20,000 nucleotides of DNA from an uncultured virus (IMG/VR IMGVR_UViG_3300042569_003179) (lineage: Duplodnaviria > Heunggongvirae > Uroviricota > Caudoviricetes). The stretch lies in IMG/VR virus record IMGVR_UViG_3300042569_003179, one strand, 5' to 3'. Every line of letters starts with the position of its first letter. Within the stretch, counting starts at the first letter, position 1. Of the stretch, positions 4,272 through 13,959 are shown piece after piece. A program made the position numbers and the translations under genes. The notes under the pieces were generated by a model that was given only the letters and a program-made list of their open reading frames with translations, ran no database searches and was not told the DNA's origin.

Positions 4272-4871
4272 TTAGATAGCAACCGGTGTAAATACTCCAT
4301 AGTATGCCCTGCCATAACAGCCGGATTCAGCCAACGTAGTAACACGACCTGTCTGCCCTATCCACCCATTAAGAGCATCTTCGGTAAGTTCATGGGGGTG
4401 GCCATCATGAGCAGGAATGTCGATCCACTCGAAAATTCTAAAAATCGGTGCAGCTTTTAGGGCGTTATGAACGATTTTGGCAGGGTCTACCGTATGTTGT
4501 AAACAGTTATACATCCATACCTCATCCCACCCCGTGTCTTCAATATCCTCACCCATCGAAACTGAAACTGAGACGTTATTACTCGCGTATCGATCAACGG
4601 TCCATTTAGGGTAGGATACCGGGTCTACGACTTTGCCTTCAGTTAAGTTGATGGTTTTAAGCAAAAGGCTGCTGGGACCACCACCGATATCAAGGATTCT
4701 TTTGCCCCCCACATCAAAACTATAATGGGTCCGATGCAATCCCATTAATCTCCCGTAGACGAATTGCTTCTGTTCCTCGTCAAAGGTATTGCAGCAGTTA
4801 CCCCAGTATGACCTTTCAAAGTCGTAGTCGTTGCTGCGATCGTTATGGTTGCCGTAGTCGTTATGGCTCAT
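4272..4871 (-). CDS. class I SAM-dependent methyltransferase
   Basis: ILDIGGG motif I, VVDP, WDEVWMYNCLQHTVDP motifs. Confidence 0.85.
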   Translation of the reverse strand: MSHNDYGNHNDRSNDYDFERSYWGNCCNTFDEEQKQFVYGRLMGLHRTHYSFDVGGKRILDIGGGPSSLLLKTINLTEGKVVDPVSYPKWTVDRYASNNVSVSVSMGEDIEDTGWDEVWMYNCLQHTVDPAKIVHNALKAAPIFRIFEWIDIPAHDGHPHELTEDALNGWIGQTGRVTTLAESGCYGRAYYGVFTPVAI

Positions 4872-4911
4872 TTCAGTGGGTTAAATTTGTGATATTTGCG
4901 CCAGCAAATTA

Positions 4912-5143
4912 TGGCGGACCGGAGAATTGAACTCCTATTCCGATAGAATTTTGCTAACCTAAGTTAACAATGCACAGGTATTAATACCTGAGGGGCTATC
5001 TCCCAAAGTCTCAAGAATTCTTGAGACGCTTTTTACCCAGATATTCCGGGCACCATGTTGGCAGTAGATGCTAAGCTACTGGCCTTAGTATTAAAACTGA
5101 GGACTTAGACCTGTGCGTCTTACCTGGATTTCTCCAACCCGCA
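4912..5143 (-). ncRNA. enlarged tRNA-like RNA A (~232 nt)
   Basis: (T)GCGGGT...GTCCGCC-A ends pair; GGAG-TTCAATT-CTCC T arm; D-like GGTAAGAC; helix GCACAGGT/ACCTGTGC enclosing ~5 hairpins. Confidence 0.6.
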
Positions 5144-5174
5144 GTGAGGTAATGAACTGAAGAAGCAACCTTCA

Positions 5175-5292
5175 GACTTAAGGGAACCTTAAGATTTGAG
5201 TTATGGCCAGAAGGTCATACAAGATGGTTGGGTTTCTATAGCAAAGAAATTTGTAAATTGCTGAACCATCTTAGTTTTGTGCTAGCAAAACA
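5175..5292 (-). repeat. structured repeat copy 1 (AAGATGGTT-CAGCAA...AACCATCTT element)
   Basis: High similarity to 5712-5831; core also at 7172-7240. Confidence 0.85.
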
Positions 5293-5364
5293 TGGCGGAA
5301 GCTGGATTTGCACCAGCGATCTTCAGGGTATGAGCCTGACGAGATTCTACTTCTCTACTCCGCG
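5293..5364 (-). tRNA. trnfM: initiator tRNA-fMet(CAU)
   Basis: C1·C72 mismatch, TCAGG-CTCATAC-CCTGA, T loop TGCAAAT. Confidence 0.85.
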
Positions 5365-5392
5365 TTATTGTACCGTGTGTTAATTACGGTAA

Positions 5393-5463
5393 TCGGGATG
5401 GAAGGTACTGCCCCTTCTATTCTGCTTCCCAAAAGCAGTGTGATACTTTTCTACTACACCCCG
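5393..5463 (-). tRNA. trnP: tRNA-Pro(UGG)
   Basis: CGGGGTG/CATCCCG-A, CTGCT-TTTGGGA-AGCAG, atypical T loop GGCAGTA. Confidence 0.8.
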
Positions 5464-5496
5464 ATGTCTACCTAATGTTACCCTTCCGGTTCCATG

Positions 5497-5541
5497 CCCA
5501 TGCTTGCAAAACAGGTGCCCCCCCAATTGAGCTATGACCCC
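5497..5541 (-). pseudogene. tRNA-Ala(UGC) remnant (5' half only)
   Basis: GGGGTCA-TA-GCTC-AATTGGG-GGGC-A-CCTGT-TTTGCAA-GCATG; no T arm or acceptor 3' strand follows. Confidence 0.6.
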
Positions 5542-5545
5542 GTGT

Positions 5546-5686
5546 TCATCTAATGCTTTCTAACATATAGGTTTTACCCTTGAGTGTGACAGTGAGCGAA
5601 GGGTTAGCTATGGCAGCAGCCAGTTGCTTCCTTGCCTTAGGGTCGTTTAATATCCCCTTAATTAACCTGGTTGGTTCTACTTTCAT
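5546..5686 (-). CDS. small hypothetical protein (46 aa, MKVEPTRLIKGILNDPKARKQLAAAIANP...)
   Basis: Manually read ATG..TGA ORF inside the tRNA cluster. Confidence 0.55.
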   Translation of the reverse strand: MKVEPTRLIKGILNDPKARKQLAAAIANPSLTVTLKGKTYMLESIR

Positions 5687-5711
5687 TTTATCAGGGTTTG
5701 TGTGGCCATCC

Positions 5712-5831
5712 GACTTGAGGGAACTTTAAGATTTGAGTTATGGCCAAAAAGTCATACAAGATGGTTGTTTTTTCTACCAAAAAGAAAGTTTTTAGATTGC
5801 TGAACCATCTTAGTTTTGCTATCGCAAAACA
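5712..5831 (-). repeat. structured repeat copy 2
   Basis: Near-duplicate of 5175-5292, directly 3' of tRNA-Phe. Confidence 0.85.
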
Positions 5832-5832
5832 A

Positions 5833-5909
5833 CCGGAAATCGCAGAATCGAACTGCGGACCTCTCGTTTTTCAGACGAGCGCTCTTCACCAAGACTGAGC
5901 TAATTCCCG
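5833..5909 (-). tRNA. trnF: tRNA-Phe(GAA)
   Basis: CGGGAAT/ATTTCCG-G, CTCGT-CTGAAAA-ACGAG, CGCAG-TTCGATT-CTGCG. Confidence 0.9.
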
Positions 5910-5970
5910 TTTTTTACCCGGGTTTGATCTCCCGGTAGTTATTACCCCCAGACTTTCACCTGAGGGCAAA

Positions 5971-6042
5971 TTGAACGCACGGGACTCGAACCCGCATCCT
6001 CCACCAACCCGGTGGCGCTCTACCACTTGGAGCTAACGTCCA
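5971..6042 (-). tRNA. tRNA-like RNA with G3·U70/A73 and shortened anticodon arm (undetermined isotype)
   Basis: TGGACGT/GCGTTCA-A, normal D and T arms, CCACC-GGGTT-GGTGG anticodon arm. Confidence 0.75.
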
Positions 6043-6177
6043 AATCCCTTTGAATAAACCTGCAAGTTACTTTTAAGGGCCGGGTATTACAATTGCAGTT
6101 GCTTTCCCCTCGGGACTTTCACCCGTATATGCAACTCTGTTAATTCGTGGTTGCTAACGATTTCCCGTTTCCGGAAA

Positions 6178-6248
6178 CGGGGTATAGGGGACTCGAACCC
6201 CCCTTTGCGAGTAGACAGCCCGCAGCCTTCCCTGACGGCAAATACCCT
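6178..6248 (-). tRNA. trnD: tRNA-Asp(GUC), A1·C72 mismatch, U37
   Basis: AGGGTAT/ATACCCC-G, GCGGG-CTGTCTA-CTCGC, GGGGG-TTCGAGT-CCCCT. Confidence 0.85.
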
Positions 6249-6314
6249 ATTTGCCCCTGCCCTGGCTCACTTGCTTGTTCCGAAGAACCGCACTAGCAAA
6301 CCTGCTGGAGGCAA

Positions 6315-6387
6315 CACCCAATGAGGGAGTCGAACCCCCGTATTCTAATTCGTAGCCAGACGCTTTAATCCACTAAGCTAATTGGGC
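6315..6387 (-). tRNA. trnR: tRNA-Arg(ACG)
   Basis: GCCCAAT/ATTGGGT-G, TCTGG-CTACGAA-TTAGA. Confidence 0.92.
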
Positions 6388-6442
6388 AGTTTTCTGCCGA
6401 AAACTTTCAGAGTGTTCTCGTAAGTTTCTCGTTAGAGAAACA

Positions 6443-6523
6443 TGGCCCCCAAGGGACTTGAACCCTTACAGCTTTCGCTGGGAGTTTTTAAGACTCCTGT
6501 GTCTACCCTTCCACCAGAAGGCC
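6443..6523 (-). tRNA. trnL: tRNA-Leu(UAA), intron-less
   Basis: GGAGT-CTTAAAA-ACTCC, variable arm CAGC-GAAA-GCTG, A73. Confidence 0.93.
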
Positions 6524-6582
6524 ATTTGGTGTTAAATTTTCAAGTTGCTGGTTGAGAGTTTTGACTCTGCCAACCTGTCACT

Positions 6583-6626
6583 ATTATAGCGTCTCTGCGG
6601 GCAGAGACAAGGGCGGTTAACCGAAC
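6583..6626 (-). promoter_or_regulatory. sigma70-like tRNA-operon promoter with CGGTTAACCG palindrome and 8-bp inverted repeat
   Basis: TTGTCT-16-TATAAT; GTCTCTGC-CC-GCAGAGAC. Confidence 0.7.
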
Positions 6627-6696
6627 GTTTGCTGAGCAAACGACACCGGAGAGATGGCCCCCCGAGATTTATCTTAAGTTTCCTCGTCAGAGAAAA

Positions 6697-6768
6697 AGCG
6701 GGTAGGGGTAGTCGAAACCCCGTCTACTGCTTGGAAGGCAGTCATATTGGCCGTTATACGATACCCGC
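6697..6768 (-). tRNA. trnG: tRNA-Gly(UCC)
   Basis: GCGGGTA/TACCCGC-U73, ACTGC-CTTCCAA-GCAGT. Confidence 0.95.
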
Positions 6769-6808
6769 ATTTTGTATGTTGCTTCGGTAATGTTTACGTC
6801 AGCAAAAG

Positions 6809-6881
6809 GGTGATGAACGGGAATCGGACCCGCGCTAGTCTGGCTCACAACCAGATGCCTTACCACTTGGCTACCACCACC
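6809..6881 (-). tRNA. trnH: tRNA-His(GUG) with genome-encoded G-1
   Basis: G-GTGGTGG/TCATCAC-C73, TCTGG-TTGTGAG-CCAGA, T loop TCCGATT. Confidence 0.92.
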
Positions 6882-6882
6882 A

Positions 6883-6978
6883 TGGTGCCCTAGGTTTGTA
6901 TCCAACGGTAATGAAACTTTAAGGTGATGGTCTCCCATTTCCACCCTAAGTCATATTACCCAGACTCAACCGTAAGCA
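6883..6978 (-). ncRNA. rod-shaped hairpin RNA ending in ACCA
   Basis: Nested helices GGTT/AACC, GGTAAT/ATTACC, AGGGTG/CACCTT, ATGG-GAGA-CCAT; fills the gap between two RNA genes. Confidence 0.45.
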
Positions 6979-6979
6979 A

Positions 6980-7135
6980 TGCCCCAACCAGGGGTTCGAA
7001 CCTGGAGGCAAAAGAATCTATTTTCAATAAGAAGGTTTGATTTCAAGGCCACACCTTATCAACGTAGGTTCAATACGCCTATCAGCATTTACTCGTAGAT
7101 TTGAACCCTGATGCCTGTTCCAACTACTTTGGGAC
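6980..7135 (-). ncRNA. enlarged tRNA-like (tmRNA-like?) RNA B (~156 nt)
   Basis: GTCCCAA/TTGGGGC-A acceptor, CCAGG-TTCGAAC(C)-CCTGG T arm, AGGCA/TGCCT helix enclosing a ~100-nt insert. Confidence 0.7.
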
Positions 7136-7171
7136 TTTTTTCGTGTTTTGAACATTCCTAACAAAGTTAGG

Positions 7172-7240
7172 CTAGATGATTGTTTTTCCAATTTCGAAGG
7201 AGTTGATCGCTGAATCATCTAAGTTTGCAACTGCAAAACA
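7172..7240 (-). repeat. structured repeat copy 3 (core, diverged)
   Basis: TAGATGATT-CAGCGA...AATCATCTA with compensatory changes relative to copies 1 and 2. Confidence 0.75.
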
Positions 7241-7248
7241 ATGGCAAA

Positions 7249-7329
7249 TGCCCACCGGGGGACTCGAACCCCCACGCCTTTCGGCACATGGGCCTAAACC
7301 ATGCGTGACTTCCATTCCACCAGGCAGGC
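7249..7329 (-). tRNA. trnL: tRNA-Leu(UAG)
   Basis: GCCTGCC/GGTGGGC-A, CATGG-TTTAGGC-CCATG, long variable arm. Confidence 0.93.
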
Positions 7330-7359
7330 TTTTTTCTAGGGGTTTTTCAAAGAAAAACA

Positions 7360-7517
7360 TTGAAGTGGAGAGGCTTGAACTCTCAATGTTAAGATTGCGT
7401 CTGGCTGCTACTTAACAGGTGGTTTCAACCATGAGCCAGGAAGTTGCTATTAGCATTTACAACCCCATCCGTATCGGCTGATTCCACACCCCCGTATACC
7501 AGTTCCGGCACACTTCT
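7360..7517 (-). ncRNA. enlarged tRNA-like (tmRNA-like?) RNA C (158 nt)
   Basis: (A)GAAGTG/CACTTC(A)-A, Leu-like D arm CCG-GAACTGGTATA-CGG, GAGAG-TTCAAGC-CTCTC; pseudoknotted insert. Confidence 0.75.
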
Positions 7518-7535
7518 TCTTTCCTTAGAAAGAAA

Positions 7536-7616
7536 CTGGAGCGGAAGGACTCGAACCTTCATTGTCTTTCGACACTCGTTAACAGCGAGTTGCATTTCCA
7601 ATTATGCTACACCCCA
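7536..7616 (-). tRNA. trnN: tRNA-Asn(GUU) with long variable arm
   Basis: TGGGGTG/CGCTCCA-G, ACTCG-CTGTTAA-CGAGT, variable region GTC-GAAA-GAC-AAT. Confidence 0.88.
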
Positions 7617-7777
7617 TTACACCCTGCGTTACGGCAGGGGACAGTAGGAAACACTCTGGGGTCGCATTGCGTCCCGGTGTGAGTACGAATCGTTACTTAA
7701 ACCGGTTATTACTGACCCTTAGCTGCAAACCGGAAACCTGTGCTAAAGGACTTTTTCCTTTCCCGTTAGGGAAAGAA

Positions 7778-7851
7778 TGGGAGCGGTCGGGATCGAACCG
7801 ACGACCTATCGGTTATCAACCGAGTGCTCTAGACCGCTGAGCTACGCTCCC
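7778..7851 (-). tRNA. trnI: tRNA-Ile(GAU)
   Basis: GGGAGCG/CGCTCCC-A, loop TTGATAA, GTCGG-TTCGATC-CCGAC. Confidence 0.95.
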
Positions 7852-7917
7852 TTGGTGTTAAATTGTCTAGTTTCTGTCAATGGCGTAACCAGTGGCGTTA
7901 CTACCAGCGACACCCTT

Positions 7918-7946
7918 AGTATAGGGTCTTGCCCCGGTAAAGTAAA
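7918..7946 (-). promoter_or_regulatory. sigma70-like tRNA-operon promoter
   Basis: TTTACT-17-TATACT. Confidence 0.6.
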
Positions 7947-8057
7947 GGACGGTTTGCCGCCCCCACCTTACGGACTTTTTCGCGTTTTTCGCTTAGCGAA
8001 AGTTGCCTTGCGATTAAACCTTACCAGGGTTAGCTGGTGGGTTAATCTTAGAGCAAA

Positions 8058-8184
8058 TTGACTACCGAGGACTTGCACCTCGACCCCCTCTGTCCAAAAC
8101 TACTCGCAGGTACGGAACTTGGCCTTCGTTCTATCTTACTGCTTTCGCCCAAAGGGACATGCTGACTTCTAACACTCGTAGTCA
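8058..8184 (-). ncRNA. enlarged tRNA-like RNA D (127 nt)
   Basis: Perfect TGACTAC/GTAGTCA-A acceptor, CGAGG-TGCAAGT-CCTCG T arm, D-like GTGTT/AGCAT hairpin, CCCTTTG/CAGAGGG helix enclosing ~55 nt. Confidence 0.7.
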
Positions 8185-8346
8185 AAGTCCATTTTACGTC
8201 AGGGCGGACACACCCCGTTTGCCTTTGGAAAACCAAAGATTTAACCTACCTAGATTTACCCTCTTACACGATAACTCGTTTTGATGCAATCTCCCGATCT
8301 GCAGAGGCAAAGTAGGCTAGCCCCGTGGATTAATCCCATAGGGCCA

Positions 8347-8420
8347 TACTCTAGAAGGGATTCGAACCCTCGATTTCCTGCTTGAAAGGCAGGCGACTTA
8401 GACCGCTTGTCCACTAGAGC
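8347..8420 (-). tRNA. trnE: tRNA-Glu(UUC)
   Basis: GCTCTAG/CTAGAGT-A, CCTGC-CTTTCAA-GCAGG. Confidence 0.95.
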
Positions 8421-8511
8421 CTATGCCGCATTGCTCCGGATACCGGAGTTACGGCTTTTGGCAATTAGGTTGTCAAGTTGCGTTGCTCGGGGTTGTGTCC
8501 CTTACCTCTGT

Positions 8512-8727: not shown

Positions 8728-9501
8728 CTAAGCAACAAAATCCCCTAGCTGAATCCTGCCCTCCGGCACCCATTCTTTGACAATGGCCCTAATTATGGGC
8801 TTATTCGGTCTATACTGGGGGGGAATATCCGACATGTCCAAACTCTCGGGTCCAACCAAAACCCGTTGACGCTTAATGTAGGTCCCATGGGTGAATGCCC
8901 TAGGGAGTTCTTCCCATGGTTTCCCTATTTGTTTCAGCAAGGTTTTCATTTCTTCGCAAGTTACCCCTTGAAGGTCCTTATGTGAAAATAAACTCTGGGC
9001 ATACATTGACACTGAGTTTTTCGTAGCGTCATTGAGCCTCCATAGGAAGTTCTTATAGACGTATTCCAAATTAGGGACATTCCATACCCTGCAGTCAAAT
9101 ACGGGGTACTGGCCTACCTTTTCAGGGAGATATTCAGGTAAGTTTCCTGTGAAAAATGCCCCCGCTGTCGAGGCCAGTATTGATGTCAGCTTCTGGTATT
9201 TGCCCCTAAATAGAAATTCCCTATTGGAGTAATTCCGCTTGTCAAGATGCCAATACAAAGTTATCTCATCGGATTGGCAATACCCTAGTAAAGCCTCACT
9301 TTCGGTAACAAGGTGCCTTGTGGTAGCAACCATTAGGTTAACGAATCGCTCATCAAACGGCTTTTGGAGGTTATGGGTAAACGAACTAAAGGTCCTCCCA
9401 TCGATGCGGCACATTAAAGGGCGGAAGGGATTTGCAGTCCTGCCTGCCTCTTTTTGCTCTTGTTCTTTTAGGGTGTCGCCCAGGGTGTCAGTGTGTGGCA
9501 T
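8728..9501 (-). CDS. thg1: tRNA(His) guanylyltransferase Thg1-like protein (TLP, 3'-5' polymerase)
   Basis: RIDGRTFSSFT, KPFD, YCQSDEITL, FDCRV, WR..DATKNS and FSHKDLQG motifs. Confidence 0.95.
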   Translation of the reverse strand: MPHTDTLGDTLKEQEQKEAGRTANPFRPLMCRIDGRTFSSFTHNLQKPFDERFVNLMVATTRHLVTESEALLGYCQSDEITLYWHLDKRNYSNREFLFRGKYQKLTSILASTAGAFFTGNLPEYLPEKVGQYPVFDCRVWNVPNLEYVYKNFLWRLNDATKNSVSMYAQSLFSHKDLQGVTCEEMKTLLKQIGKPWEELPRAFTHGTYIKRQRVLVGPESLDMSDIPPQYRPNKPIIRAIVKEWVPEGRIQLGDFVA

Positions 9502-10361: not shown

Positions 10362-11489
10362 TTAAAATCCCCCCTTCTCAGTCTCCCTGAGGGCCACTCC
10401 GACCGGGAAAATCGGGACACCACTTGCACTCAGTTCTTGATACCGGACTGTAAGGTACTTTGTTGTTGACAATATGTCCTCACGATTTTCGTAAAGAGAC
10501 CTGCGGTATTCCATATCGCCTTCTGGCACGACAGTAAAGGTTTCAGTCTCAGTGGCTTTACATACAAAGATCGAAGCACTTTTGAACCGGCCACCCCCTT
10601 CGATAATGTCAAGGACTTCAAACTCACCGTCCACGAAATCCTTCACCTTTTGCAACTGGTTGTTCCGGTGTCCGATATCATACCCGCCAAGGTCGAACCT
10701 GACCATCGAACCCTCGTACCCGGAGTCAACGAATTGACTGTGGTGAAAAATAACGTCAGATGGGGACTCCACCTCGGCAGTAGGGGTTAGTATAATGTGT
10801 GATTCTCCCAAGGGAACCAGACTCTTCAAAATTTCAAACCGTTCGGAGAAAGGTCTCGAAGGATCAACAATGTCGTAGACCCAGTATACAAGCGTGGGGG
10901 ACAACTCGGGACGAAACTTCTTGATCGCAGTCATTGTCTTTTGTAACAGAGGGTTTCCCGGCAGAATGAGTTCCCCGTCCAGGATCACCCCTGGTGGCAA
11001 TTTTCTGATTTCCTCTTTAATATGTGCGATACACTCCGGAATAATCAACTTGCCACCGCGAGACCACCCCCCACTATTGTCGAGTAGCATCCGTTGTCCG
11101 TTCAGTTTAGGTTGCACGAATGCGGGCCAGGTTACCTTGTGGCCACGGTCCGAAAACTTATGGGCTAGCATTGGTAAGGGCAAAACCTCGGGCTCCTGCC
11201 CGATTTCAGCATATCCTTTATCAATTTGCTTTTTAAAGTCGCGCTCAATTTCTAGGTGGGCTTGTTGCTCCGCTGTGGTTGCGTTGGCCCGTCCGACATT
11301 TTTGGGATACACACAGTAAGGATCACTAAATTGCAAGGCTGAGCTTGAGCCATCATTATTTGTTTGCCAATAGGACGATTGTGTAAACCACCTATCCACG
11401 CTACTAAAAAGGACGTGCCCTTGCCAGAACTTGGCTTTACCGGTGCGGGTTGTTGACTGGAGGACTGGGGTGCTGTGTACGATTTTCAT
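10362..11489 (-). CDS. lig: ATP-dependent DNA ligase with N-terminal WGR-like domain
   Basis: Motif I QPKLNG, III ILDGEL, IIIa YWVYDI, IV EGSMVR, V LQKVK; C-terminal OB domain ending TVRYQELS..GVPIFP. Confidence 0.92.
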   Translation of the reverse strand: MKIVHSTPVLQSTTRTGKAKFWQGHVLFSSVDRWFTQSSYWQTNNDGSSSALQFSDPYCVYPKNVGRANATTAEQQAHLEIERDFKKQIDKGYAEIGQEPEVLPLPMLAHKFSDRGHKVTWPAFVQPKLNGQRMLLDNSGGWSRGGKLIIPECIAHIKEEIRKLPPGVILDGELILPGNPLLQKTMTAIKKFRPELSPTLVYWVYDIVDPSRPFSERFEILKSLVPLGESHIILTPTAEVESPSDVIFHHSQFVDSGYEGSMVRFDLGGYDIGHRNNQLQKVKDFVDGEFEVLDIIEGGGRFKSASIFVCKATETETFTVVPEGDMEYRRSLYENREDILSTTKYLTVRYQELSASGVPIFPVGVALRETEKGGF

Positions 11490-13041: not shown

Positions 13042-13959
13042 TCAAGACAAGGCAAGCATCTTCTCAAGGGGCTTCAAAGCCTTCAATCTTAACCCCCCTT
13101 CAAGTTTAATCTCGGGTGTCAAATCCCGCAGACAATTGCGAACTTTTTCCAGAGTGCTTAACTTCATCCATGGGCAGTCATTACAACTACAGCCATCTCG
13201 GCCAGGGACATCTAGGAATACCTTGTTGGGTGCAACCTGACTCATCTTGTGGATAATTCCTGGTTCTGTCAGGACGATGAATGTTTCTGCCGGGCTATCT
13301 TTCACCCTTTGCAGTAAAGCACTGGTAGAGCCCACAAAATCAGCAAGGCGCAATAACGCTTCTTCGCATTCCGGGTGGGCAATAACTTCGCAGCCAGGGT
13401 TGGCTGTCCAGAGATCCATCAACGCTTCTTCGCTGAAAGCTTCGTGTACCTGGCAGCTGCCATCCCATAAAGTCAAATTTCGACCTGTTTGCTCAGCTAC
13501 CCATCGCCCCAAATTTCTATCCGGTGCGAACAAAATGGGCCTGTCAGCGGGAATCTGGTTTACCAGGCGCACCGCATTACTGCTAGTGCAGATAAGATCG
13601 CTCTGGGCCTTAATCGCTGCTGAACAGTTTATGTAACTGACTACATAGTGGTCGGGGTGCTCTGCACGAAACTTGGAAAAGTCACCCGGTAAACAAGCAT
13701 CAGCCAAGCTACAACCTGCATTGATATCAGGAAGTAAGACGGTCTTCGATGGGTTAACAATCTTGGCAGTTTCAGCCATGAAGTGAACACCGCAAAACAC
13801 AATCGTGTCTGTATTTGTCCCAGCAGCTTGGCGGGCAAGCTCAAGGGAATCCCCTACAAAATCCGCAATTTCCTGAATGGCTGGTTCCTGGTAGTAGTGG
13901 GCCAGGATTACTGCGTTACGTTGCTTTCTCAGCTTAAGAATCTCTTCGACCGGGTTCAT
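13042..13959 (-). CDS. nadA: quinolinate synthase NadA
   Basis: [55 protein letters not shown] and CPWMK motifs; Fe-S cysteines present. Confidence 0.97.

What the first reader, a model, noticed from the sequence alone, without database searches (positions are those of the whole stretch)
4912..8184. Family of four enlarged tRNA-like RNAs embedded in the tRNA cluster
Seen: four minus-strand elements (A 4912-5143, B 6980-7135, C 7360-7517, D 8058-8184) each have an acceptor-like stem with A73, a T arm and a D-arm or D-loop-like segment. In each, the anticodon arm is replaced by a 55-130 nt structured insert. The inserts are otherwise dissimilar, so this is not one duplicated pseudogene. They look too short for group I introns and show no recognisable intron core. 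Known: T4 has tRNA-like RNA C and D of unknown function, and tmRNA uses this tRNA-like-domain-plus-insert architecture. Inference: RNase P-processed, possibly aminoacylated scaffolds carrying cargo domains.
Basis: partly seen in the sequence, partly recalled or inferred. Interest (0 to 1): 0.85.

Follow-up and report, generated by a model that had tools for sequence, protein, structure and literature searches.

The report
Phage tRNA-shaped RNAs that cannot decode
Inside the tRNA gene cluster of a large lake-water phage sit three small RNA genes that keep a tRNA's ends and corner but have a rebuilt middle, so they probably cannot read codons, plus one scar left by a DNA rearrangement; their job is unknown, as it still is for phage T4's similar RNA C.

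Summary
All four minus-strand elements exist and carry tRNA-like ends. No tRNA, tmRNA, intron or Rfam model calls them. They are not one family, and each resembles a different tRNA type.

- **C (7360-7517)** is a real, conserved structured RNA. I found 13 distinct sequences, including an unannotated stretch of cultured cyanophage S-CRM01. 12 of 39 pairs covary and 96% of cells pair, against 41-51% in slid controls. It has a class-II tRNA frame (most like tRNA-Leu), a 52-nt insert and a pseudoknot.
- **D (8058-8184)** has 3 distinct homologues. All 108 cells pair and 4 of 37 pairs covary. Its frame scores best with tRNA-Pro, with tRNA-Arg about as high. The UUUGGG stretch is paired inside a 73-nt rod.
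- **B (6980-7135)** is kept in 5 close genomes, but none of its 43 predicted pairs covary. Its function is open.
- **A (4912-5143)** is a rearrangement chimera: an 87-nt piece, a truncated dispersed repeat, and the last 30 nt of an initiator-like tRNA-Met that is intact in relatives.

Best reading: tRNA-derived, non-decoding RNAs matured by tRNA enzymes, like T4 RNA C. Processing, charging and function are untested.

The parts
7360..7517 (-). Element C: 158-nt conserved tRNA-shaped RNA. Positions count from 7517 as 1. Helices: acceptor 1-7/151-157; D stem 10-12/24-26 with an 11-nt GG loop; conserved stretch 27-51; hairpin Pa 52-58/72-78; helix X 79-84/112-117 enclosing hairpin 87-90/95-98; pseudoknot Y 101-107/125-131; T arm 134-138/146-150; A158 last.
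   Evidence: 13 distinct sequences. 39 pairs, 96.1% of cells paired against 40.6-50.5% when slid; 12 pairs changed on both sides; 0 of 500 shuffles reach the observed value. One strong hit per genome in 5 of 5 genomes.
7387..7439 (-). C's pseudoknot domain: helix X, the inner hairpin, and helix Y. Helix Y pairs UGUUAAG (inside X) with CUUAACA, which lies just before the T arm.
   Evidence: Helix Y has 4 of 7 pairs changed on both sides, with different solutions in at least 3 lineages. Helix X has 1 of 6. The covariance model aligns X with the anticodon stem of class-II tRNAs, and the 16 nt after X with their variable arm.
8058..8184 (-). Element D: 127-nt tRNA-shaped RNA. Positions count from 8184 as 1. 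Helices: acceptor 1-7/120-126; hairpin 10-14/22-26; rod 28-35/93-100, 38-42/86-90, 43-46/76-79 and 54-57/67-70; 2-nt link; T arm 103-107/115-119; A127 last.
   Evidence: 3 distinct sequences: the window (identical in G001), G002, and L138. 108 of 108 cells paired against 35-48% when slid; 4 of 37 pairs changed on both sides; 5 of 500 shuffles reach the observed value. L138 has lost one base on each strand of the basal helix.
6980..7135 (-). Element B: 156-nt tRNA-shaped element. 7-bp acceptor; 12-nt D-loop-like stretch with GG but no D stem; helix AGGCA/UGCCU closing about 100 nt (including GGUUCAA/UUGAACC); T arm directly after; A156 last.
   Evidence: 5 distinct sequences at 93% mean column identity. 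0 of 43 predicted pairs changed on both sides. Strong model hits in G001, G003 and G005; none in G002 or S-CRM01. The nearest ordinary tRNA is a 75-nt tRNA(UAG) of L006, at 26.9 bits.
4912..5143 (-). Element A: a 232-nt chimera of three pieces, not a designed scaffold.
   Evidence: L098 and L006 carry an intact tRNA-Met(CAU) where A has only its last 30 nt. L098 has A's first 87 nt about 200 nt upstream of that tRNA.
5057..5143 (-). A's first 87 nt. They start TGCGG like the initiator-like tRNA-Met. This piece supplies the strand that pairs with the tRNA-Met 3' end in a 13-bp closing helix.
   Evidence: 95% identical to L098 2124-2210, where it stands next to a truncated tRNA-Tyr.
4940..5056 (-). 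A 117-nt, 5'-truncated copy of a dispersed repeat of about 170 nt made of four hairpins.
   Evidence: A 30-nt pattern from it found 8 loci in 6 viral contigs, with two copies each in two genomes. 6 of these 8 copies extend about 55 nt further 5'. No Rfam match.
4912..4941 (-). The last 30 nt (T arm, 3' acceptor strand, A) of an initiator-like tRNA-Met(CAU).
   Evidence: 100% identical to nt 45-74 of tRNA-Met in L006 15937-16010 and L098 1920-1993.
7536..7616 (-). 81-nt tRNA-Asn(GUU) directly upstream of C. It is class-II-like, and its anticodon loop CUGUUAA is the same 7-mer as C positions 100-106.
   Evidence: It is the best ordinary-tRNA hit of the C model in the window, at 24.6 bits.
5393..5463 (-). 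Weak tRNA with a UUUGGGA loop (Pro-UGG type). It has the same anticodon type that D seems to derive from.
   Evidence: Rfam tRNA at 36.6 bits. Not called by ARAGORN.
8728..9501 (-). Thg1-like (tRNA-His guanylyltransferase family) gene next to the cluster. Context only.
   Evidence: Pfam PF04446 at 2e-27; PHROG 4717 at 1.8e-64.

Best explanation
B, C and D are three unrelated small RNA genes. Each seems to have arisen from a different tRNA-type frame in the cluster:
- C has a class-II frame most like tRNA-Leu.
- D has a frame that scores best with tRNA-Pro (tRNA-Arg scores about as high).
- B resembles a 75-nt tRNA(UAG).

Each keeps the parts that tRNA-handling enzymes recognise: a 7-bp acceptor stem, a T arm, and a D-loop with GG. 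Each has lost a usable anticodon arm.

- In C, a 52-nt insert follows the D arm. The enlarged loop of the former anticodon arm is paired to the region that corresponds to the variable arm, forming a pseudoknot.
- In D, the UUUGGG stretch, which matches the tRNA-Pro(UGG) anticodon loop, is zipped into a 73-nt rod whose tip is invariant.

I infer the following. They are transcribed with the tRNAs and cut out by RNase P and the 3' tRNA-processing enzymes. They receive CCA, since none is encoded and the phage has its own CCA-type nucleotidyltransferase. They then persist as stable, non-decoding RNAs whose conserved inserts do the work, probably by binding or titrating a host or phage factor.

A is different. 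It is a scar where a dispersed repeat and a deletion destroyed an initiator-like tRNA-Met gene.

**Shown:** the anatomy, the conservation, the covariation in C and D, and the origin of A. **Inferred:** transcription, processing, stability and function.
For: **C**
- 13 distinct sequences in at least 3 lineages, including S-CRM01.
- 12 of 39 pairs changed on both sides; 96.1% of cells paired against 40.6-50.5% when slid; 0 of 500 shuffles reach the observed value.
- Single copy in 5 of 5 genomes searched.
- The insert core is 83% identical between the window and S-CRM01, while the flanks do not align.
- The C model scores T4 tRNA-Leu at 36.5 bits and the window's class-II-like tRNA-Asn at 24.6 bits. 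Both alignments delete the 52-nt block and place helix X on the anticodon stem.

**D**
- 108 of 108 cells paired; 4 of 37 pairs changed on both sides; a matched loss of one base on each strand in L138.
- The 30-nt rod tip is identical in all 3 sequences.
- The D model aligns S-CRM01 tRNA-Pro (25.1 bits) and T4 tRNA-Pro (25 bits) with a 54-nt deletion directly after UUUGGG.

**B**
- Kept in 5 genomes.
- Related to a 75-nt tRNA(UAG) that lacks the 86-nt block.

**Context**
- T-arm hairpins in the cluster occur only in tRNAs and in B, C and D.
- Full-length, unjoined C lies in contigs of 3 RNA libraries, and D in 1.
- The genome encodes a PolyA_pol/CCA-type enzyme and a Thg1-like protein.
- T4 RNA C has the same layout.

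**A:**
Against: - No experiment or read-level data shows discrete processed RNAs, CCA ends or charging. The RNA-library data are contigs and may contain DNA.
- B has no covariation (0 of 43 pairs). It is no better conserved than its flanks in close relatives (the blocks that include it are 91.5-93.7% identical).
- D rests on only 3 sequences, and 5 of 500 shuffles reach its scores.
- Single-sequence folding of B, C and D is not better than shuffles.
- The ancestry assignments rest on 25-37-bit model hits. For D, tRNA-Arg scores about as well as tRNA-Pro: 28.7 bits in G002 and 24.3 in T4.
- The count of sigma-70-like promoter matches is at chance level: 4 against a shuffle mean of 3.6.
- The function of the inserts is entirely unknown.
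Confidence: 0.6

Rival explanations
1. They are intron-containing tRNA genes. The insert is removed by self-splicing or by proteins, and an ordinary decoding tRNA results, as proposed for the 'enigmatic introns' of Lak megaphage tRNAs.
For: - After in-silico removal of an internal block, ARAGORN calls a tRNA in 16 of 1829 variants for D (Pro/Gln/Ser/Thr), 12 of 1829 for C and 6 of 1829 for B (Leu-CAA).
- D's insert begins right after a tRNA-Pro-like UUUGGG, the usual intron site.
- The passages I read in PMC6784885 report conserved introns in phage tRNAs.
Against: - With the ends kept and the interior shuffled, the same scan does as well in 4 of 30 runs for D and 2 of 30 for C, though 0 of 30 for B. 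The called anticodons are also inconsistent.
- ARAGORN's intron mode finds nothing.
- There is no group I core at E<=10.
- In D, the covarying pair 29-99 and the matched deletion support a slipped helix that uses the former variable-loop G's. That leaves a 2-nt link, and no deletion restores a 5-bp anticodon stem plus a variable loop.
- In C, the anticodon-like 7-mer changes between lineages, with compensating changes in its partner. A decoding tRNA could not tolerate this.
- The inserts are conserved as well as or better than the tRNA frame.
- RNA-library contigs carry only the unjoined forms (weak evidence).
- The cluster also holds uninterrupted tRNAs with anticodons Asn-GUU, Leu-UAG, Met-CAU and a weak Pro-UGG type.
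Confidence: 0.1
2. All four are decaying tRNA genes: insertion and rearrangement debris of a fast-changing tRNA cluster with no function. They look conserved only because the genomes are close relatives.
For: - A is demonstrably such debris.
- Relatives show other broken tRNAs, for example L005's tRNA-Lys with an internal deletion and a truncated tRNA-Tyr in L098.
- The tRNA content differs widely between relatives.
- B shows no covariation and is confined to one clade.
- Folding z-scores of B, C and D are ordinary.
Against: - C persists as a single copy from the window's lineage to S-CRM01, with compensatory changes in 7 of its 8 helices, including the insert helices.
- D keeps every pair across 88%-identical copies that sit at different genome positions, with 4 double changes.
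- Neutral debris would not keep helices.
Confidence: 0.2
3. They are charged, tmRNA-like or amino-acid-donor RNAs. The tRNA-like part is aminoacylated (C perhaps by LeuRS, given its class-II frame and A73), and the RNA acts on ribosomes or in a non-ribosomal transfer.
For: - C's frame scores best with tRNA-Leu: 36.5 bits on T4 tRNA-Leu.
- C ends in A in 10 of the 12 rows with a clear end.
- That LeuRS does not read the anticodon is recalled knowledge, not a tool result.
Against: - ARAGORN found 0 tmRNA genes, and Rfam found no tmRNA family.
- By eye, no reading frame is kept between C homologues.
- The 1-72 position is unpaired in 5 of 13 C sequences.
- Nothing here can test charging.
Confidence: 0.07

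Closest known systems
Phage T4 RNA C (species 1 RNA, rnaC, 139 nt) and RNA D (rnaD, 119 nt) of the T4 tRNA cluster
   Same: - They sit in a phage tRNA gene cluster on the tRNA strand.
- rnaC folds with a canonical T arm (CCGGG-UUCGAAU-CCCGG) and a closing stem around an enlarged, hairpin-rich interior.
- They are absent from Rfam.
- Their function is still unknown, according to the passages I read in PMC3014915 and PMC9697503.
   Different: - No demonstrated homology. The C model scores rnaC at 17.9 bits, below T4 tRNA-Leu (36.5) and tRNA-Ser (18.8). The D model gives 12.1 bits, and the B model matches only the T arm.
- C has a pseudoknot and D a single long rod. rnaD shows no tRNA-like fold (z = -0.83).
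- The T4 RNAs are experimentally known stable RNAs. These are predictions.
Class-II tRNAs (tRNA-Leu type) and tRNA-Pro(UGG), as the apparent ancestors
   Same: - C keeps the 7-bp acceptor, U8-G9, a 3-bp D stem with an 11-nt GG loop, a 16-nt region where the variable arm would be, the T arm and A73.
- D keeps the acceptor, the T arm and the UUUGGG of a Pro(UGG) loop.
   Different: - Neither reaches the tRNA gathering score or an ARAGORN call.
- There is no free 7-nt anticodon loop on a 5-bp stem.
- C carries 52 extra nt after the D arm and a 27-nt loop. D carries 54 extra nt and only a 2-nt link to the T arm.
'Enigmatic' conserved introns in tRNA genes of Lak megaphages (Devoto et al. 2019, PMC6784885; passages read)
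   Same: Large phages with tRNA-sized frames carrying conserved inserts of no known intron class.
   Different: There, removing the insert gives a tRNA that a standard program recognises, and intron-less alleles exist. Here, removal does not restore a canonical tRNA beyond what shuffled controls give for C and D, and the insert helices covary with frame nucleotides.
YrlA, the tRNA-like bacterial Y RNA (Chen et al. 2014, PMC4201824; search listing and start of abstract only) and tmRNA
   Same: Non-decoding RNAs that contain a tRNA-like module joined to another functional domain.
   Different: - There is no Rfam match to YrlA, Y RNA or any tmRNA family.
- No Ro60/TROVE gene in 0 of 2 complete or near-complete genomes.
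- As I recall, in YrlA the RNA ends form the Ro-binding stem and the tRNA-like part is internal. Here the ends form the acceptor stem.
- No tag reading frame; ARAGORN -m found 0.

Membership tests
tRNA (Rfam RF00005 / ARAGORN) | Score at or above the family threshold; called as a tRNA | tested here: not met
   None of the four is among the 15 ARAGORN genes or the 15 Rfam matches. None appears at E<=10.
tRNA (Rfam RF00005 / ARAGORN) | 7-bp acceptor stem followed by a T arm with a UUCRANY-type loop, then a discriminator base | tested here: met
   B, C and D pass the T-arm scan. The acceptor and T helices of C and D covary. A has only a 4-bp T stem.
tRNA (Rfam RF00005 / ARAGORN) | 5-bp anticodon stem with a free 7-nt loop, and a 4-5-nt or hairpin variable region | tested here: not met
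   In C the loop is 27 nt and paired to the variable-arm region. In D, UUUG is paired in the rod and the link is 2 nt. In B, about 100 nt lie between the closing helix strands.
tmRNA | tRNA-like domain plus a tag reading frame with a resume codon; detected by ARAGORN -m or Rfam | tested here: not met
   0 tmRNA genes. No tmRNA family in Rfam. By eye, candidate frames in C and B are not kept in homologues (alignments).
Group I intron inside a tRNA gene | Catalytic core (P3-P9) recognisable by the Rfam model; a tRNA restored when the intron is removed | tested here: not met
   No Intron_gpI match at E<=10 in 4700-8500. ARAGORN intron mode finds none in the elements. The inserts are 52-130 nt.
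Protein-spliced or 'enigmatic' tRNA introns (Lak phage type) | Removing one internal block gives a canonical tRNA with one consistent anticodon | tested here: inconclusive
   ARAGORN and 6 of 1829 deletion variants for D, C and B, with mixed anticodons. Shuffled-interior controls reach this in 4 of 30, 2 of 30 and 0 of 30 runs.
YrlA / Y RNA with Ro60 | Rfam match, and a Ro60 (TROVE) gene in the genome | tested here: not met
   No match. TROVE found in 0 of 2 genomes, while the control search found it in Deinococcus and Bacteroides.
T4 RNA C-type stable RNAs of phage tRNA clusters | Encoded within a phage tRNA cluster on the tRNA strand, with a T arm and closing stem around an enlarged interior | tested here: met
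   Positions. T4 layout.
T4 RNA C-type stable RNAs of phage tRNA clusters | Sequence or structure homology to rnaC or rnaD | tested here: inconclusive
   The C model scores rnaC at 17.9 bits, below two ordinary T4 tRNAs. The D model gives 12.1 bits. The B model matches the T arm only.
T4 RNA C-type stable RNAs of phage tRNA clusters | Accumulates as a discrete, stable, processed RNA during infection | not testable with these tools
   Only contigs from RNA libraries were available. They cannot show ends or abundance.

The most novel reading that the evidence does not exclude
Phages repeatedly convert spare tRNA gene copies into 'anticodon-locked' tRNA-shaped RNAs. The frame that tRNA enzymes recognise is kept. 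The former anticodon loop is base-paired to the RNA's own insert or variable region, and a conserved new domain is displayed. C, D, possibly B, T4 RNA C and the look-alikes noted elsewhere in this scan would then be independent examples of one widespread, uncatalogued functional class. A plausible role is as decoys or adaptors for host tRNA-binding factors during infection. C can be tested directly in the cultured S-CRM01/Synechococcus LC16 system.
Probability: 0.35. Interest if true: 0.75.

Novelty: new variant of a known kind. Interest (0 to 1): 0.6.

Why it matters
Phage tRNA clusters are usually annotated as tRNAs plus empty spacers. Here two of the 'spacers' hold RNA genes whose helices are under selection. 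One of them lies unannotated in a cultured cyanophage, S-CRM01.

T4 RNA C has had no known function for about fifty years (the age is my recollection; 'roles unknown' comes from PMC3014915 and PMC9697503). A second and third family with the same logic would give comparative leverage and a second laboratory system.

Two further points matter:
- These RNAs seem to arise from different tRNA types by the same route, losing decoding while keeping the enzyme-recognition surface. That bears on how new non-coding RNAs are born.
- They could confuse tRNA counts and codon-usage arguments for phages.

Tried and rejected
- **Standard callers.** ARAGORN, ARAGORN with introns, ARAGORN tmRNA mode, and Rfam at gathering score and at E<=10 gave no call for any element. 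The -io mode gave only absurd 'introns' of 235-1790 nt spanning whole tRNAs.
- **GenBank phages.** Only C matched, to S-CRM01. B and D had no match.
- **Pattern scans.**
  - A 16-mer of C gave 82 loci, nearly all chance. nhmmer kept only true homologues.
  - One 22-mer hit, L092, lay in coding sequence.
  - The genome-contig scan gave 2 loci in unrelated MAGs, which I did not examine further.
  - D's T-arm/acceptor 23-mer gave 0 hits. D's homologues came from the genome search and a core pattern instead.
- **All-against-all column covariation on C** was too noisy, because there are only about 3 clades. I replaced it with the structured count and its controls.
- **Deletion scan for hidden tRNAs** turned out barely better than shuffled controls for C and D.
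- **RNA libraries.** All four runs are kept as contigs from relatives. The joints seen are DNA-level differences between strains, for example the L098-type arrangement at A and relatives that lack tRNA-Asn before C. No joint lies inside B, C or D. This shows presence only, not transcription, ends or absence of splicing.
- **Promoter scan** was at chance level.
- **No whole genome is held for the window**. I used the nearest record, G001, instead.
- **Earlier notes of this scan** by place and by sequence held nothing.
- **Ideas dropped:** C as a UGA-reading tRNA (a possible hairpin 29-34/42-47 with loop AAUCAGC has no conserved U33 and an invariant purine-purine mismatch), and tag peptides in B or C (not conserved).

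Full report
**Setting.** The window is phage DNA.
- Its genes include a Thg1-like enzyme (8728-9501), an ATP-dependent ligase, NadA, a glycosyltransferase and a virion protein.
- The nearest held record, G001, is a 279,339-bp genome with terminal repeats, in which B and D are 100% identical.
- DNA runs that hold the stretch are lake-water metagenomes.
- On the minus strand, ARAGORN finds 15 tRNAs and Rfam adds a weak one at 5393-5463.
- Three promoter-like sites lie on that strand, but the total is at chance level: 4 found against a shuffle mean of 3.6.

**Observation.**
- All four elements have the described ends.
- A scan for T-arm hairpins finds, within the cluster, only the called tRNAs plus B, C and D.
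- No tool calls any of them as tRNA, intron-bearing tRNA, tmRNA or any Rfam family, even at E<=10.
- Folding energy is exceptional only for A (z = -4.45). B, C and D score -1.01, -0.91 and -1.64.

**Element C.**
- *Homologues.* blastn against 50,697 phage records matched one thing besides tRNAs: 114 nt of C at 83% identity in Synechococcus phage S-CRM01. The match lies in an unannotated 376-nt gap between tRNA-Val and tRNA-Ala. Pattern scans of viral and metagenome contigs, filtered with nhmmer, gave 28 hits and 13 distinct sequences.
- *Structure test.* I read a structure off the alignment and tested it.
  - It has 39 pairs in 8 helices.
  - 96.1% of cells pair, against 40.6-50.5% when partners are slid.
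  - 12 pairs changed on both sides.
  - 0 of 500 shuffles reach the observed scores.
- *Where the support lies.* It includes the acceptor, the D stem (CCG/CGG becomes CCC/GGG), the T stem (2 pairs), hairpin Pa, helix X and above all pseudoknot Y. In Y, 4 of 7 pairs covary, with different solutions in the window clade, the L003 clade, L107 and S-CRM01.
- *Copy number.* A covariance model (R1) finds exactly one strong copy in each of 5 of 5 genomes. In the window it finds nothing at B, D or A beyond T-arm fragments.
- *Ancestry.* R1's best ordinary tRNAs are T4 tRNA-Leu (36.5 bits) and the window's own 81-nt, class-II-like tRNA-Asn (24.6 bits). The alignments delete C's positions 27-78. They put helix X on the anticodon stem and the 16 nt after X on the variable arm.
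- *Conclusion.* C is a class-II tRNA frame with a 52-nt insert after the D arm, a 27-nt loop in place of the anticodon loop, and a variable-arm region that pairs into that loop. The 7-mer CUGUUAA in the loop equals the anticodon loop of the neighbouring tRNA-Asn. In other lineages it changes, with compensation in its partner, so only the pairing is kept.

**Element D.**
- *Homologues.* Nothing was found at first. The genome search then found an 88%-identical copy in G002, again downstream of a tRNA-Glu but at a different genome position. A core pattern found L138.
- *Structure test.* With 3 distinct sequences, 108 of 108 cells pair (35-48% when slid). 4 of 37 pairs changed on both sides: 6-121, 7-120, 29-99 and 43-79. 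Only 5 of 500 shuffles reach this.
- *Further support.* L138 has lost one base on each strand of the basal helix. The 30-nt tip is identical in all three.
- *Ancestry.* The D model aligns S-CRM01 and T4 tRNA-Pro (25 bits each) with a 54-nt gap directly after UUUGGG. tRNA-Arg scores about as well, at 28.7 and 24.3 bits.
- *Why it cannot decode.* Relative to tRNA-Pro, D's helix is slipped. The former stem strand UCCC pairs with G's that correspond to the variable loop, and UUUG of the loop pairs with CAGA. Only 2 nt are left before the T arm. No simple excision restores a tRNA.

**Element B.**
- Five distinct sequences come from one clade, at 93% mean column identity.
- It is absent from G002 and S-CRM01.
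- The consensus fold has 43 pairs, none with changes on both sides.
- Variation is concentrated in one hairpin tip.
- The nearest ordinary tRNA is a 75-nt tRNA(UAG) of L006 that shares B's D-loop region, closing helix and T arm but lacks the 86-nt block.
- B may be functional or a young pseudogene.

**Element A.**
- *The tRNA remnant.* A's last 30 nt are identical to the 3' end of a tRNA-Met(CAU) that is intact in L006 and L098. That tRNA has GGG/CCC in its anticodon stem and an unpaired 1-72 position. These are initiator hallmarks by recalled knowledge.
- *The 5' piece.* In L098, A's first 87 nt stand about 200 nt upstream of the tRNA, next to a truncated tRNA-Tyr.
- *The middle.* A's central 117 nt are a 5'-truncated copy of a dispersed repeat of about 170 nt, found at 8 loci in 6 contigs. 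It has no Rfam match.
- *Conclusion.* A is therefore a rearrangement scar shared by the window, L005 and L121. Its 13-bp closing helix joins pieces of two Met-type genes.

**Splicing.**
- Deleting internal blocks lets ARAGORN call tRNAs in 16, 12 and 6 of 1829 variants for D, C and B, and 0 for A.
- Shuffled interiors do as well in 4, 2 and 0 of 30 runs.
- Contigs from three RNA libraries carry full-length C, and one carries D, with no joint inside B, C or D. This is presence only.

**Comparison with known RNAs.**
- T4 rnaC shows the same layout. It is not in Rfam, and its role is unknown (PMC3014915 and PMC9697503, passages). Homology to C is not shown: 17.9 bits.
- There is no Ro60 gene in G001 or G002.
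- Both genomes encode a CCA-type nucleotidyltransferase.
- Lak phage tRNA introns are the nearest rival model (PMC6784885, passages).
- Six literature searches found no description of these RNAs. PMC10690425 predicts many phage tRNA-like candidates (passages). I did not check its supplements.
- Earlier notes of this scan describe similar RNAs in other phages. These are leads only.

**Verdict.** C and D are new, well-supported tRNA-derived RNA families. B is a candidate. A is debris. How they are processed and what they do remain inferred.

Noticed in passing
window 7536-7616 (-): The tRNA-Asn(GUU) is 81 nt long. It has a 3-bp D stem and a 12-13-nt variable hairpin (GUC-GAAA-GAC), a class-II body that is unusual for Asn. 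L003 has a normal 73-nt tRNA-Asn at the same place.
   Followed up: partly
window 4940-5056; L120, L122-L125, L127 (full-length copies): A dispersed repeat of about 170 nt with four hairpins, present twice each in two genomes. By eye, one hairpin shows a compensatory change (CAGGTA/TACCTG becomes CAAGTA/TACTTG in L122). It has no Rfam match. It could be a mobile mini-element or a repeated regulatory RNA.
   Followed up: partly
window 5169-5292, 5706-5831, 7196-7241: A second repeat family follows tRNA-Met, tRNA-Phe and tRNA-Leu(UAG). It contains a 9-bp inverted repeat (AAGATGGTT...AACCATCTT). The second copy is followed by a 46-aa ORF at 5546-5686.
   Followed up: no
window 8728-9501 and 10362-11489; G001:179217-179633: The phage carries a Thg1-like enzyme and an ATP-dependent ligase beside the tRNA cluster, and a PolyA_pol/CCA-type nucleotidyltransferase elsewhere. 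This looks like a tRNA maturation or repair toolkit. The base before the phage tRNA-His (6881) is already G.
   Followed up: partly
window 5393-5463 (-): A weak tRNA (Rfam 36.6 bits, missed by ARAGORN) with a Pro(UGG)-type loop and an odd T loop (GCAGTAC). It may be a degenerating tRNA-Pro.
   Followed up: no
L005 11697-11780 and 11213-11280: A relative holds another uncalled tRNA-like element (GGGTATA...TATACCC with T arm GCAGG-TTCGAAT-CCTGT) and a tRNA-Lys(UUU) with an internal deletion in its T arm. tRNA decay and remodelling seem common in this phage group.
   Followed up: no
L006 11932-12006: A 75-nt tRNA with anticodon UAG, a poor D arm and A73 takes the place of the window's 81-nt class-II tRNA-Leu(UAG). 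It is the closest ordinary relative of element B.
   Followed up: partly
window about 7990, 7755 and 7140 (-): The motif GAAAAAGTCC recurs three times on the minus strand. One copy overlaps the first bases of B. Its meaning is unknown.
   Followed up: no
L111 1409-1547 (T4 rnaC): Within T4 rnaC, an internal CGGAACG can pair perfectly (7 bp, one G.U) with the 3' CGUUUCG. The last 92 nt alone therefore form a tRNA-like unit, as an alternative to pairing with the annotated 5' end.
   Followed up: no
window 13042-13959 (-): A full-length quinolinate synthase NadA (Pfam 3e-117) is encoded by the phage. This is an NAD-synthesis auxiliary gene.
   Followed up: no
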